A program made the translations under genes and the position numbers. Below are positions 6,432 to 13,820 of a stretch of 30,670 nt of DNA, piece after piece (positions within the stretch are counted from its first letter, which is position 1; every line of letters starts with the position of its first letter). This DNA comes from Hormoscilla sp. GTDB lineage: Bacteria; Cyanobacteriota; Cyanobacteriia; Cyanobacteriales; Desertifilaceae. Location of the stretch: assembly GCA_051439505.1 (NCBI GenBank), contig JBFRWI010000197.1, positions 1 through 30,670 of the forward strand, read 5' to 3'. The notes beneath the pieces were generated by a model that had not been told where the DNA came from, searched no databases, and saw nothing but the letters and a program-made list of their open reading frames with translations.

Positions 6432-7493
6432 TTAATTAATCGGTTCCAGTTGGCTGAGAATTAAGCCAAACCACCCTTTGGCATCTGTCCAAACTTTTAT
6501 AGTTTTTAACCCCTGTTTGGACATGTAGGACTGCATGGCATTGAGTTCAAATTTGCGCGAGATTTCCGTATGTATTGTCTCTCCTTCGGCAAAGTCTACG
6601 TTGAGGTTCAGGTCCTTGAGACGGACCGAGTGCGGTTCCTTGCACCGCAGATGCATCTCAATCTGGTTTTGTTCGGTATTATAAAAGGCCCAATGCTCGA
6701 ATAGCTCGGTATTAAAATTGCCGCCAAAGCGCCAGTTCAAATGATCTAGCATATTCAGATTAAATGCAGCTGTCACTCCCTTGCTGTCATCATAAGCCGG
6801 TTCCAGCACCTCTTTGGGCTTCTGCAAGTCTATCCCCAACAAGAAATACTCGCCCTCTGCCAAGGCCCCTGTCACTTGAGCAAAGAAAGCATCGCATTTG
6901 TCGGGAGGGAAATTACCTAAACTGCTGCCCAGAAAGGCGATCGTCCGGGTTGGCAGTCCCGTGGGTGGCAGGGCAGCTAGGGCCATTTCATAAGTGCCGA
7001 CCAAACCGTGGACTTGCAAGGTGCTATAGTCGGCTATTAGCTGTTCGGCACTGCTTTCGAGGATCCCAGCACTGACATCAACCGGCACGTAGCGCATCGC
7101 ACCTCCCAATTCTTGGTAGGCATCTAGCAACAGCCTGGTTTTCGTGGAACTGCCACTGCCTAATTCTACCAGTTCGCAGGGACCGGTCATCCCGGCAATT
7201 TCACTGGCATACTGCTGCAAAATTGCTGTTTCTGTCCGGGTCGGGTAATATTCTGGTAACTCGCAGATCTCCTCGAACAGCTGAGAACCCCGATCGTCAT
7301 AGAAATATTTCGGCGGTAGGGTTTTGGGAGTTTGAGTTAGTCCCGCGATCGCATCTGTTCCCCCTGCCTCGGAAATGGCCCTAGTAGAGATCAAATGCTC
7401 AATTGTTAGCCGTTGTCCTAGGCGAGAACTGGCTGCTGTATCCTGAGTTATATTCCTCACGTCAAGCTTTCTGGTAAAACTGCACGACCACAA
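6432..7493 (-). CDS. egtD: L-histidine N-alpha-trimethyltransferase EgtD
   Basis: PKTLPPKYFYDDRGSQLFEEICELPEYYPTRTE, LVELGSGSSTKT, FLGSSLGNF, AYDDSKGVTAAFNLN, IHTEISRKF. True start may be GTG at 7460. Confidence 0.95.
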   Translation of the reverse strand: MWSCSFTRKLDVRNITQDTAASSRLGQRLTIEHLISTRAISEAGGTDAIAGLTQTPKTLPPKYFYDDRGSQLFEEICELPEYYPTRTETAILQQYASEIAGMTGPCELVELGSGSSTKTRLLLDAYQELGGAMRYVPVDVSAGILESSAEQLIADYSTLQVHGLVGTYEMALAALPPTGLPTRTIAFLGSSLGNFPPDKCDAFFAQVTGALAEGEYFLLGIDLQKPKEVLEPAYDDSKGVTAAFNLNMLDHLNWRFGGNFNTELFEHWAFYNTEQNQIEMHLRCKEPHSVRLKDLNLNVDFAEGETIHTEISRKFELNAMQSYMSKQGLKTIKVWTDAKGWFGLILSQLEPIN

Positions 7494-7608
7494 AGCCTGG
7501 AATATTTCTGTATCCCAAGCTGCAAAACGGTCCTTAACTCTTATATCACACTATGAGGACAAGTGGCATCATAAATCTTAAAATTTACTAAATTCCTAGC
7601 TCCTATCC

Positions 7609-7637
7609 TTGACAAAAATCAAAATATGTGGTATTAG
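7609..7637 (+). promoter_or_regulatory. Candidate sigma70-type promoter for the lyase gene
   Basis: TTGACA (7609-7614), 17 bp spacer, TATTAG (7632-7637) with TG dinucleotides just upstream. The -10 box is imperfect. Confidence 0.4.
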
Positions 7638-7796
7638 AGGAAATTTATTGCTCCATGACTGTTGACACGGGCTCTGTTTGCATGTATTTTATCAAGATGG
7701 CAGTGAGCTAGCGGAACCAGATAAAGGATCTGCTTGGCGAACTATAGTTTGGTGGATAGTAAACTAGCAACAAAAACTAGCAAAAAGAGTTCAAAA

Positions 7797-11781: not shown

Positions 11782-11803
11782 GTAGGGTGGGCACCGCCCA
11801 CCA
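11782..11803. repeat. REP-like palindrome GTAGGGTGGGCACCGCCCACC; other copies near 2431, 6188, 6248, 6408, 15531, 15585, 16243
   Basis: GTAG tetranucleotide followed by a GGTGGGC/GCCCACC stem, recurring in intergenic spaces. Confidence 0.85.
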
Positions 11804-11809
11804 CCACAA

Positions 11810-13069
11810 CTATTGCGACTGACTACTAGCACAACGAAAACCTGCTAATATCTGCCGCACTCCCGGATGATACCAGTTACGGAAGCTGGCACGCATGGCC
11901 CAAGGACGAGTTGCCCAGCTAGCACCTTTGATGACTCGATGCTGGTTATCAAAGTAGGCTTGAGAATAACCCAGATAGGGATACCAGGCAAATCCTTCGT
12001 AACCATCAAACCAGCTTCCCGTCCATTCCCAGACATTACCCAAAGCATCCTCCATGCCATAGGCACTCTGTCCTGCTGACGCGGCATTCACGGGAGTTGT
12101 CTGTCCTACTATACCATCGCAATTGCATTGCTGGCCACTGGGCATTTCTTCTCCCCAAGGATAGGTCCGACTGCGCCCGGCTGCGGCATCCCAGCAGGCG
12201 GCTTTTTCCCATTCCGCTTCTGTGGGTAGCCGCTTCCCGACATGTCGGGCATAGGCTTCGGCTTCATACCAGCTTACTCCACAAACGGGATGATTTTCCC
12301 ATTCTGACTCGTTATGCCAGTATAGGGGCTGGACAACGGGATTTTCTTGCAGCCACCTCCACCCATCTGCCGACCACCAACTTTCATTCTGATAGCCGCC
12401 ATCGGCGATAAATTGGCGGTATTGTCCGCAGGTGACTGGATAGCGATCGATCCAGTAAGTATCCAGATAAACCCGATGGCCGGGGCGTTCGTTATCCATC
12501 GCCTCGATGGAATTACTGCCCATGTCAAACTCCCCGGCGGGAATTTCCAGCATTTCCGCTGCCACGGGATGTTCATCGGTTATTTGACCGGGTATTTTAT
12601 CCCTTGACTCTAACATGTTTTGCATTTGCAGCACGAAGGCGATGGTTTCATTGTGCATGCTTTCATGTTGGAGGATAAAGCGCCACAACCGTTCTTGTTC
12701 CTCAACGGGGGCCCTTTCCAGGTAGGTGAAGACTTTGGTTCTAATGCTGCTGAGGATATCGCAGACTTCGGGAAATGATGGCACAAACACGCCCCGATCG
12801 CACTTAGGCAGGCCGTCGGCGGCAAACAGTTGGCGGTATTCTGGATACAGTTGCGGCTGCCCGGCCAATTCTTCTAAAATCCAGTAGCCTTCTGTCATGC
12901 CAATGTGCCCCAGGTGCCATCCTACGGGACTGAATTCGGGATGACTTTGACCGCGAAAGCTGGCCTCATCTAGGTCGGCAAACAAGGACATCGTTTTCAT
13001 CCGACATTGCTGGAAGTCCCGATAGATCTTGTCTCTACAGGATTGGGTGGATCTCTGGTTCACAATCAA
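11810..13069 (-). CDS. egtB: Ergothioneine sulfoxide synthase EgtB (DinB + FGE-sulfatase domains)
   Basis: SPVGWHLGH and QHESMHNET iron-binding His motifs, FGE-like domain (KRLPTEAEWEKAA, GNVWEW, GFRCA). Overlaps egtC; egtD is nearby. Confidence 0.92.
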   Translation of the reverse strand: MIVNQRSTQSCRDKIYRDFQQCRMKTMSLFADLDEASFRGQSHPEFSPVGWHLGHIGMTEGYWILEELAGQPQLYPEYRQLFAADGLPKCDRGVFVPSFPEVCDILSSIRTKVFTYLERAPVEEQERLWRFILQHESMHNETIAFVLQMQNMLESRDKIPGQITDEHPVAAEMLEIPAGEFDMGSNSIEAMDNERPGHRVYLDTYWIDRYPVTCGQYRQFIADGGYQNESWWSADGWRWLQENPVVQPLYWHNESEWENHPVCGVSWYEAEAYARHVGKRLPTEAEWEKAACWDAAAGRSRTYPWGEEMPSGQQCNCDGIVGQTTPVNAASAGQSAYGMEDALGNVWEWTGSWFDGYEGFAWYPYLGYSQAYFDNQHRVIKGASWATRPWAMRASFRNWYHPGVRQILAGFRCASSQSQ

Positions 13070-13820
13070 CTCCTATGGTCAGAATACTATTGTCAGCACA
13101 TGGGATCCATTCTCCCACAAATAGGGGTTCCGATGCAATGATGATACTCTCGGGATATGTCCGATCGTCCTTCAGCCAGTATAACGTAGGTGCCGGTGGA
13201 TGGGTGGAAAACCGAGAGGCGATCAGGCGATGTCCCTCGGTAATAACGATATTAGCTGAGGCTTTTACCTGATGCTTGTCCGCCAACTCATGCAGCGTCC
13301 TTAAGGTTTGCTGCAATGCCTGTTCTAGGGTAATAGATGCTTGCCAGGCATCTATCAAAAGGGCGAAAATATGTTCGGAATCCGTACTGCCGCCGATTAG
13401 TTTGTAGGCCAGGTCCGAGAGGCGATCGCGGATGGGGCGATATAAACTCTGGCGAAAGTTTTGGATAAAACCATTGTGAACGAACAGCAGGCGCTGATAA
13501 GTAAAGGGCTGACAATTACTGAAATCTACAGCTTGTCCCGCCGTGGCACTGCGGACATTTGCCAGGATACAGCCCGATTCAATATAGCGACTCAGTTGGG
13601 GCAGATTAACATCACTCCAGGCGGGCAAAATATGTTTATAGGTAAAGGGTTCGGTCTCCCGTTGGGGGTGATACCAACCTATGCCAAACCCATCAGCATT
13701 GACTACTCCAGAAGTCATCTCCCGGGGTTCATAACTTTGGGCGATCAGAGAATGTTCTGGTTTGTCAAGTATCTGAGACAGTTGAATGGGCTTTCCGAGA
13801 TATCCTAATAGACGACACAT
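13035..13820 (-). CDS. egtC: Ergothioneine biosynthesis amidohydrolase EgtC (Ntn/class II GATase-like)
   Basis: N-terminal MCRLL (Cys2 nucleophile), NADGFGIGWY, VRSAT, HNG, TDSEHIF, IASEP. Confidence 0.93.
   Translation of the reverse strand: MCRLLGYLGKPIQLSQILDKPEHSLIAQSYEPREMTSGVVNADGFGIGWYHPQRETEPFTYKHILPAWSDVNLPQLSRYIESGCILANVRSATAGQAVDFSNCQPFTYQRLLFVHNGFIQNFRQSLYRPIRDRLSDLAYKLIGGSTDSEHIFALLIDAWQASITLEQALQQTLRTLHELADKHQVKASANIVITEGHRLIASRFSTHPPAPTLYWLKDDRTYPESIIIASEPLFVGEWIPCADNSILTIGVDCEPEIHPIL

What the first reader, a model, noticed from the sequence alone, without database searches (positions are those of the whole stretch)
6432..13820. Ergothioneine cluster expanded into a candidate new pathway: egtC-egtB-MT1-MT2 >< ergothionase-like lyase <> egtD
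Seen: egtC-egtB and egtD are separated by ~4.3 kb holding two HNMT-like methyltransferases, co-oriented directly behind egtB, and an MIO-less lyase with a signal peptide. Established: EgtD/B/C make ergothioneine precursors; ergothionase eliminates trimethylamine to give thiourocanic acid and is normally part of catabolic loci; HNMT methylates an imidazole nitrogen. Inference: synthesis, two imidazole-directed methylations and an exported elimination step in one locus suggest a dedicated route to a mono- or dimethylated ergothioneine and/or methylated thiourocanate. Thiourocanate absorbs in the UV-B, so an extracellular sunscreen, antioxidant or signal (with trimethylamine release) is plausible. 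No thiourocanate hydratase or other catabolic gene is in the window.
Basis: partly seen in the sequence, partly recalled or inferred. Interest (0 to 1): 0.92.

Follow-up and report, generated by a model that had tools for sequence, protein, structure and literature searches.

The report
Ergothioneine operon with added tailoring enzymes
In this cyanobacterium the genes for the antioxidant ergothioneine are interrupted by two methyl-adding enzymes and a predicted exported ergothioneine-cleaving enzyme; one methyl-adder sits beside ergothioneine genes in four cyanobacterial families, so these organisms likely make an undescribed methylated relative of ergothioneine, while the cleaving enzyme is likely a separate, optional add-on.

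Summary
The gene order is real: egtC-egtB-MT1-MT2 >< lyase <> egtD. It is an insertion into an operon that is contiguous in 3 of 4 same-genus genomes. Both MTs are HNMT-fold (profile E 3.5e-16; MT2 model TM 0.73). MT2's clade lies within 9 kb of egtD or an EgtB/OvoA-type gene in 12 of 18 other genomes, across four families, both orientations and both synthase types; often as tandem copies. So MT2 likely methylates an ergothioneine-pathway betaine; substrate and site are untested. The lyase lacks MIO, has a Sec-type leader and keeps every ergothionase residue checked, including the thiolate lysine, so it likely cleaves plain ergothioneine. It is egt-linked in only 3 of 12 other genomes, and a close relative has MT2 joined to egtD without it. 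No urocanase-family hydratase was found in the genome. The arrangement is not unique: one independent contig carries the egt-MT2-lyase layout, with the lyase specificity loop diverged. Best reading: two parallel add-ons, a methylation branch and an exported TMA/thiourocanate branch. A single route to methyl-thiourocanate is possible but less likely. Not found in the literature searched.

The parts
6432..7493 (-). egtD, histidine N-alpha-trimethyltransferase (start codon uncertain)
   Evidence: TIGR03438 above cut-off; PF10017
7662..7690 (+). sigma-70-like site TTGACA-17-TATTTT upstream of the lyase (consensus match only)
   Evidence: 20 sites found against 12.6 +/- 4.4 in shuffles, so weak
7797..9515 (+). 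MIO-less ergothionase-like trimethylammonia-lyase, 572 aa from ATG 7797 (ORF opens at TTG 7734); Y118, K128, H158, Q349, R355, N385, K477, E505 in 593-aa numbering
   Evidence: PF00221; below the HutH cut-off
7797..7871 (+). predicted Sec signal peptide (25 aa) of the lyase
   Evidence: sequence and hydrophobicity; similar leaders in cyanobacterial orthologues
9618..9828 (.). MITE-like repeat with 17-bp terminal inverted repeats between the converging lyase and MT2 ends; not part of the pathway
   Evidence: 43 paired copies in the genome; skipped in relatives' contigs
9838..10773 (-). MT2, HNMT-fold SAM methyltransferase of the egt-linked clade
10811..11737 (-). MT1, HNMT-like paralogue (35% to MT2; ORF opens at TTG 11809), optional
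11782..11803 (.). REP-like palindrome between egtB and MT1 (436 copies within 2 mismatches in the genome)
11810..13069 (-). egtB, DinB + FGE-sulfatase sulfoxide synthase
   Evidence: (350.9 bits, cut-off 360)
13035..13820 (-). egtC, amidohydrolase
   Evidence: TIGR03442 above cut-off

Best explanation
This is an ergothioneine operon carrying an inserted cassette that likely works as two parallel add-ons: MT2 (with MT1 as an optional paralogue) likely methylates an imidazole nitrogen of the pathway's betaine, most plausibly hercynine, and the predicted exported lyase would cleave plain ergothioneine to thiourocanate plus trimethylamine outside the cytoplasm. Shown: gene order, insertion, HNMT fold, egt linkage of the MT2 clade, lyase residues, patchy lyase linkage, no hydratase found. 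Inferred step 1: EgtD makes hercynine and EgtB/EgtC (with gshA elsewhere in the genome) carry it towards ergothioneine. Inferred step 2: MT2 moves a methyl from SAM to a ring nitrogen of hercynine (a normal imidazole with a free lone pair, as HNMT chemistry needs; ergothioneine is a thione with both nitrogens protonated, own knowledge), giving N-methyl-hercynine, which EgtB may or may not carry on to N-methyl-ergothioneine. N-pi or N-tau cannot be told. Inferred step 3: the lyase meets ergothioneine only when it leaks, is exported, comes from outside or is freed by cell damage, and leaves thiourocanate and TMA as end products, in the way a DMSP lyase is kept apart from its substrate (analogy recalled). 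What the products are for (UV-B screen, deterrent, cue) is open.
For: MT2 clade within 9 kb of egtD or an EgtB/OvoA-type gene in 12 of 18 other genomes, families f1, f14, f32, f38; 5 more are cut by a contig end and keep at least one accessory gene of those clusters; 1 (G307) is unlinked. Linkage holds co-directionally and divergently and with both type-I EgtB (G120, window) and the OvoA-like synthase (G009, f14, f32), which points at a shared intermediate. A distant homologue (27%) sits between egtD and egtC pieces in G501. HNMT fold; Glu28, Tyr146, Tyr147 and Phe243 equivalents kept in MT1 and MT2, Gln143 kept in MT1 and His in MT2, Asn283 His in both (active-site role of Glu28/Gln143/Asn283 from passages of PMC9867436). 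The two characterised branches methylate imidazole nitrogens (HNMT, own knowledge; chicken HNMT-like gives N-pi anserine, passages of PMC3660329). Lyase keeps the Lys384 equivalent, whose replacement by Asn or Gln marks hercynine and N-pi-methyl-hercynine lyases, plus both imidazole ligands. Lyase and MTs come and go separately: MT2-egtD joined without lyase (record 9), egtB-MT2 joined without MT1 (record 27), egtD-OvoA-like-lyase without MT in G008. No PF01175 match in this genome (93% complete) or in 8 lyase-bearing relatives.
Against: No activity, expression or metabolite data. Identity to HNMT is only 16-17%, so the acceptor may differ; the polar triad is only partly kept. MT1's clade is not egt-linked in 4 of 4 other genomes. 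Many egt-linked copies in family f32 carry internal stops or are split, and up to four tandem copies occur, which fits birth-and-death as well as multi-step chemistry. The lyase did arrive at egt/MT2 clusters from two lyase sub-clades, and its closest relative P0002 has lost the thiolate lysine, which hints at coupling to a methylated substrate in some strains. The genomes counted are kin (7 of the 12 are family f32).
Confidence: 0.45

Rival explanations
1. One linear route: ergothioneine is methylated once or twice, exported and cleaved by the lyase to a methyl-thiourocanate that is the real product, for example a UV-B screen.
For: Lyase inside egt/MT2 clusters here, on the 12,952-nt contig of run X13 and in G414 and probably G407; P0002/P0159 and P0003/P0125 share contig lengths and sources, which suggests lyase plus MT2 on two more contigs (indirect). 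P0002 has Thr for the thiolate lysine (1 of 44 rows) and X13's lyase diverges over 9087-9272, which spans K477 and E505. Thiourocanate absorbs at 311 nm.
Against: Lyase found in 2 of 17 other MT2-clade genomes searched; stand-alone in 9 of 12; its active-site columns match stand-alone and Campylobacter copies that have no MT beside them in the loci or names seen (Campylobacter neighbourhoods were not fetched); opposite strand with its own promoter-like site; lost or never gained in a close relative.
Confidence: 0.2
2. The MTs methylate sulfur: ergothioneine becomes S-methyl-ergothioneine, an oxidation-inert form without a thiolate that the Lys-dependent lyase would not cleave; a second MT could then N-methylate the restored imidazole.
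For: Sulfur is the most nucleophilic site of ergothioneine (own knowledge); S-methyl-ergothioneine is a known metabolite of unknown function (passage of PMC8113028); tandem paralogues are common; the HNMT triad is altered; the Thr-for-Lys lyase P0002 would fit such a substrate.
Against: The closest fold and both characterised relatives are imidazole N-methyltransferases; no thiol or thioether methyltransferase ranks near HNMT in the fold search.
Confidence: 0.18
3. The egt operon is only an insertion hot spot. The MTs act on unrelated substrates and the lyase strips TMA from outside ergothioneine for its own reasons.
For: The slot after egt genes holds different cargo in different strains: 2OG dioxygenase, aminotransferase, second egtD, formyltransferase-like, SET, transposases. 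MT1's clade sits by argJ; G307's MT2 pair sits in an eCIS locus. The insert MTs are low in GC (39-40% against 48%) and flanked by high-copy repeats.
Against: A 20-kb neighbourhood in 5-11 Mb genomes is hit by chance well under 1% of the time; linkage persists through rearrangement, inversion and a change of synthase type in four families; an imidazole-methylating fold and an ergothioneine-specific lyase are the chemically fitting cargo.
Confidence: 0.15

Closest known systems
Aerobic ergothioneine operon egtBCD (type-I EgtB with EgtC; TIGR03438, TIGR03440, TIGR03442)
   Same: egtD, egtB and egtC are present and in the same order as in same-genus genomes; gshA elsewhere in the genome.
   Different: A 4.3-kb insert with two HNMT-fold methyltransferases and a lyase separates egtB from egtD. 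No such tailoring genes were found in the papers searched.
Ergothionase of Treponema denticola (PDB 6s7j/6s7q) and periplasmic ergothionase SO_3057 of Shewanella oneidensis
   Same: No MIO triad; catalytic Tyr, carboxylate Gln/Arg/Asn, imidazole His/Glu and thiolate Lys kept; leader peptide as in SO_3057.
   Different: Sits in a biosynthetic operon of a producer; no hydratase found in the genome and no flavocytochrome beside it, so neither known fate of thiourocanate (catabolism, respiration) has a gene here.
Histidine-betaine lyase Swoo_3913 and N-pi-methyl-histidine-betaine lyase SO_3299
   Same: MIO-less, exported trimethylammonia-lyases of the same fold.
   Different: They have Asn or Gln at the Lys384 position; the window's lyase has Lys. 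SO_3299's substrate has no known natural source; an MT2-type enzyme could be one.
Human histamine N-methyltransferase (PDB 1jqd) and chicken HNMT-like carnosine N-methyltransferase
   Same: Full-length profile and fold match; Glu28, Tyr146, Tyr147, Phe243 equivalents kept.
   Different: 16-17% identity; Asn283 is His, Gln143 is His in MT2; bacterial, linked to egt genes; substrate unknown.
Ovothiol biosynthesis (OvoA: sulfoxide synthase plus N-pi methyltransferase)
   Same: A thiohistidine pathway that includes a ring N-methylation.
   Different: Here the synthase scores as EgtB, not OvoA (131 bits against a cut-off of 400), EgtD is present, and the methyltransferases are free-standing HNMT-fold proteins that did not match the OvoA C-terminal model.

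Membership tests
Ergothionase | HAL fold without the Ala-Ser-Gly MIO triad | tested here: met
   G-Q-A at 216-218
Ergothionase | Lys384 equivalent (thiolate binding) | tested here: met
   K477 in the I-Q-K motif aligned to 6s7j (chain numbering is one lower than published, offset inferred); feature
Ergothionase | Catalytic Tyr, carboxylate Gln/Arg/Asn, imidazole His and Glu | tested here: met
   Y118, Q349, R355, N385, H158, E505; residue classes
Ergothionase | Converts ergothioneine to thiourocanate and TMA | not testable with these tools
   needs an assay at 311 nm
Hercynine or N-pi-methyl-hercynine lyase (Swoo_3913, SO_3299) | Neutral residue at the Lys384 position | tested here: not met
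   Lys in the window's lyase; Thr only in P0002
Histidine ammonia-lyase | MIO triad and HutH model cut-off | tested here: not met
   298.8 bits against 539.15; no triad
Ergothioneine catabolic locus | Urocanase-family thiourocanate hydratase in the genome | tested here: not met
   PF01175 0 of 5 and 0 of 5; own genome 93% complete
Respiratory lyase-flavocytochrome operon | Adjacent PF00890 flavoprotein or cytochrome gene | tested here: not met
   none in the window; three full-length PF00890 matches elsewhere, two read by eye as NadB-like, the third presumed SdhA and not fetched
HNMT family | Full-length sequence profile and fold | tested here: met
   (MT2); MT1 by sequence and alignment only
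HNMT family | Glu28/Gln143/Asn283 polar triad | tested here: inconclusive
   MT1 E/Q/H, MT2 E/H/H, mapped by hand through the profile alignment
HNMT family | Methylates an imidazole nitrogen | not testable with these tools
   needs an assay
Ergothioneine biosynthesis (egtBCD) | EgtD and EgtC above curated cut-offs | tested here: met
Ergothioneine biosynthesis (egtBCD) | EgtB above curated cut-off | tested here: inconclusive
   350.9 against 360; best family; 85-93% to same-genus egtB
Ergothioneine biosynthesis (egtBCD) | C-S lyase EgtE or substitute | not tested
   none in the window; genome not searched for it

The most novel reading that the evidence does not exclude
Benthic marine filamentous cyanobacteria run an undescribed family of methylated histidine betaines off the ergothioneine pathway: MT2-type enzymes make N-pi-methyl-hercynine or N-/S-methyl-ergothioneine (the missing natural source for the Shewanella lyase SO_3299), and some strains pair this with an exported lyase, in some lineages retuned at the thiolate lysine, to release TMA and UV-B-absorbing (methyl)thiourocanate as a DMSP-lyase-like two-compartment system.
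Probability: 0.3. Interest if true: 0.87.

Novelty: new variant of a known kind. Interest (0 to 1): 0.7.

Why it matters
Ergothioneine is treated as an end product, and no microbial enzyme that methylates it or hercynine on the ring or on sulfur turned up in the searches made. A conserved, egt-linked HNMT-fold family gives a direct enzyme to test, predicts new abundant metabolites in mat- and reef-forming cyanobacteria, and could explain why heterotrophs keep lyases for N-pi-methyl-hercynine, a compound not yet seen in nature. An exported ergothionase in a producer with no downstream catabolism would be a new role for this enzyme and a new photoautotrophic source of trimethylamine.

Tried and rejected
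Literature: searches for ergothionase + cyanobacteria (13 papers), S-methyl ergothioneine + methyltransferase (0), HNMT + cyanobacteria + ergothioneine (0), methylergothioneine terms (1 review), hercynine/ovothiol with marine genera (22, none with hercynine) and S-methyl terms (20) listed nothing on this cassette; subscription papers are mostly not held. The T. denticola ergothionase paper was not held; its residues are taken second-hand from two preprints, and their supplementary alignments could not be seen. Expression: no RNA holder listed. Runs X5, X10, X15 gave only short pieces; X6 has no cover over most of the lyase at 80% likeness and no contig joins across, so loss cannot be told from divergence. 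Metagenome scan gave 3 lyase contigs of 3-6 kb without egt genes, too short to count; L057 and L058 (24-29%) were dropped as distant. Promoter and terminator scan is near chance. The FMO-like gene on C158 is not a TMA monooxygenase orthologue (partial match, E 1e-16); the other FMO-like matches were not examined. The genome's second PF00221 gene (C91) has a MIO-type motif and is unrelated. A structure job for MT1 did not finish. The lyase tree is the quick tree only; the careful search did not finish. Earlier-findings look-ups by sequence were blank. Rejected: assembly chimera (junctions bridged; layout on an independent contig); HAL or hercynine lyase (residues); MT1 as the moved copy of the argJ-linked gene (55-56% identity against about 90% for neighbours).
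Full report
Observation. The window holds egtD (6432-7493, minus), a PF00221 lyase (7734/7797-9515, plus), MT2 (9838-10773, minus), MT1 (10811-11737/11809, minus), egtB and egtC (minus). EgtD and EgtC pass their curated cut-offs; EgtB scores 350.9 against 360 and is far below SenA and OvoA cut-offs. 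Each of the six genes is single-copy in the 6.47-Mb genome, apart from a 27% lyase paralogue with a MIO-type motif. gshA is present elsewhere. Identical contigs in runs X1 and X3 bridge egtD-lyase, MT2-MT1 and MT1-egtB; those runs may be the window's source.

It is an insertion. In same-genus genomes G001, G002 and G004 the order is spike-tip gene, egtD, egtB, egtC, DUF433, POR with nothing between egtB and egtD; G003's contig ends after egtD (3 of 4 informative). MT1 and MT2 are 38.6% and 40.2% GC, the lyase 46.6%, the genome 48.2%. Close relatives show the cassette in pieces. One 12,952-nt contig in run X13 (another study) carries egtC-egtB, 1,031 unlike letters in MT1's slot, MT2, the lyase and egtD in the window's layout. 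Run X11 (another study) has egtC-egtB-MT1 on one contig and MT2's 3' end joined to egtD with about 190 letters between and no lyase on another. Run X6 joins egtB directly to MT2 without MT1. MT2 is the constant member; MT1 and the lyase are optional.

The methyltransferases. MT1 and MT2 are 35% identical. A profile of 24 homologues matches human HNMT over its whole length at E 3.5e-16, next family 4e-5. The AlphaFold model of MT2 (pLDDT 85.8) finds HNMT first (TM 0.70-0.73; other listed folds at most 0.55; identity 16-17%). Atlas features list unnamed bacterial clusters, then HNMT-like and carnosine N-methyltransferase clusters (a lead). Mapped by hand through the profile, both proteins keep Glu28, Tyr146, Tyr147 and Phe243; Gln143 is Gln in MT1 and His in MT2; Asn283 is His in both. 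Passages of PMC9867436 name Glu28, Gln143 and Asn283 as the active-site polar residues. Passages of PMC3660329 show that a chicken HNMT paralogue methylates N-pi of carnosine; human HNMT methylates N-tau (own knowledge). So ring N-methylation is the family default and the site cannot be predicted.

Distribution of the MT family. Matches were found in 18 of 401 genomes of the order at E 1e-12 (12 of them close, own genome included), 11 of 121 in family f32, 5 of 52 in f14 and 2 of 401 phylum-wide. Named homologues come from Moorena, Okeania and Oscillatoria records. A wider bacterial family exists (372 representatives at E 1e-10) whose contexts I could not read. The tree splits an MT1 clade (98% support) from an MT2 clade (100%). 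Of 18 other genomes with an MT2-clade gene, all fetched, 12 have egtD or an EgtB/OvoA-type gene within 9 kb on the same contig, 5 are cut by a contig end within about 3 kb on the relevant side, and 1 (G307) is unlinked. The 12 span families f1 (1), f38 (1), f14 (3) and f32 (7), so they are not independent, but the link survives inversion (divergent from egtD in f14) and a change of synthase (type-I EgtB in G120 and here; OvoA-like elsewhere). Tandem arrays of 2-4 copies occur in f32, several broken. The MT1 clade's four other members lie beside argJ or at a contig end with no egt gene in view; this genome's argJ has no MT beside it.

The lyase. Best solved relative: T. denticola ergothionase, E 2.5e-105. 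It has G-Q-A in place of the MIO triad and keeps Y118, K128, H158, Q349, R355, N385, E505 and K477, the Lys384 equivalent. Two preprints, read in full or nearly so (10.1101/2025.08.13.670108 parts 1-3 of 4; 10.64898/2026.04.22.720169 parts 1-5; supplements not seen), state that this Lys defines ergothionases, that Asn or Gln there gives lyases for hercynine or N-pi-methyl-hercynine, that periplasmic members feed flavocytochrome reductases in anaerobes, and that N-pi-methyl-hercynine has no known natural source. By those rules the window's enzyme is an ergothionase. Its first 25 residues from ATG 7797 look like a Sec leader, as in its cyanobacterial orthologues. Orthologues are rare: 6 of 401 genomes (own included) and 3 of 121. 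Of 12 distinct other genome records, 9 show no egt or MT gene in the flanks held (three flanks are short on one side) and 3 are egt-linked: G008 (egtD, OvoA-like, lyase, co-directional), G407 and G414 (lyase split over two contigs, between the OvoA-like gene and DUF427/MT2; G414's copy is next to a transposase-like ORF and may be dead). Those three belong to a different lyase sub-clade from the window's, so the lyase reached egt loci at least twice. The lyase was found in 2 of 17 other MT2-clade genomes searched with it (G516 was not). No urocanase-family gene was found in this genome or in 8 lyase-bearing relatives, no flavocytochrome lies in the window, and the best FMO-like gene is not a TMA monooxygenase orthologue.

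A hint of coupling. P0002, the lyase's nearest relatives include it at 83%, has Thr for the thiolate Lys and a rebuilt loop, the only such case in 44 rows. It shares contig length and sources with an MT2 orthologue, as do P0003 and P0125 (indirect). X13's lyase diverges over 9087-9272, which covers K477 and E505; its sequence there was not printed. Some strains may therefore have retuned the lyase to a sulfur-free or S-methylated betaine. The window's copy has not.

How it most likely works. EgtD, EgtB and EgtC make hercynine and ergothioneine (established for the families). MT2 likely N-methylates the ring of hercynine, giving a methylated betaine that may or may not be sulfurised (inferred, about 0.75 that it acts on a pathway compound, about 0.5 that the site is nitrogen). 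The lyase, exported and on its own transcript, likely turns plain ergothioneine into thiourocanate and TMA outside the cytoplasm, with no known onward enzyme (inferred). Thiourocanate absorbs at 311 nm (22.5 per mM per cm), so a UV-B role is possible but nothing here tests it; release on damage, as with DMSP lyases (recalled), fits equally. Rivals: one linear route to methyl-thiourocanate (0.2), S-methylation (0.18), unrelated cargo in a hot spot (0.15).

Novelty. The parts belong to known folds; the egt-linked HNMT-fold family and an exported ergothionase inside a producer's operon were not found in the searches made (listings only, plus passages of PMC9103826 and PMC8113028). Most subscription papers are outside the library. 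Verdict: a real, recurrent and directly testable extension of ergothioneine biosynthesis; new variant of a known kind; interest 0.7.

Noticed in passing
L032:7492-8847, L074:13548-14936, L081:6718-8073, L086:1326-2681, L099:11159-12538: A 451-aa gene with no Pfam match recurs in egt/MT2 clusters of four families; Atlas features point to the MurL epimerase family (score 0.97, a lead). Not in this genome.
   Followed up: partly
L011:10888-11382, L043, L044, L045, L071, L073, L082: DUF427 (PF04248) repeatedly follows egtD and the OvoA-like synthase in these clusters.
   Followed up: no
P0002; window 9087-9272 in run X13: Nearest lyase relative has Thr at the thiolate-lysine position and a rebuilt loop: candidate new trimethylammonia-lyase specificity.
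   Followed up: partly
L043:8999-12871; L074:5800-13525; L071:15101-19030; L099:94-6512: Other egt loci carry different tailoring sets: second egtD-like gene, O-methyltransferase-like, aminotransferase, 2OG dioxygenase, PhyH, radical SAM, FcoT-like thioesterase, enolase-superfamily enzyme.
   Followed up: no
L077:5851-10573, L078, L079, L080, L035, L047: Distant HNMT-like domains occur in two-domain 580-590-aa methyltransferases beside class II aldolase, aminotransferase and 2-hydroxyacid dehydrogenase genes: a separate conserved pathway. This genome keeps the aminotransferase and dehydrogenase (L102), at a contig end.
   Followed up: no
L042:2538-11537: G016 cluster: tryptophan halogenase, distant HNMT-like MT, DAO oxidoreductase, EgtD-like MT, FAD oxidase, MATE; looks like a halogenated betaine pathway.
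   Followed up: no
window 1-6007; L075: An eCIS locus (AAA ATPase, two eCIS-core proteins, one with an endonuclease domain, spike tip) adjoins egtD throughout the genus; G307's unlinked MT2 pair lies inside an eCIS locus.
   Followed up: no
window 9618-9828; 6156-6332; 11782-11803: MITE-like element (43 paired copies), a 59-nt tandem repeat and a REP-like palindrome (436 copies) flank the cassette genes.
   Followed up: partly
L103:579-6267 (G000:C158): Separate small cluster in this genome: methyltransferase-like, aldolase/HMGL-like, FMO, prenyltransferase-like and aminotransferase ORFs (labels other than FMO read by eye).
   Followed up: no
L100:1007-7758: G501 has a distant HNMT-like gene between an egtD piece and egtC, next to a betaine-binding OpuAC protein.
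   Followed up: partly
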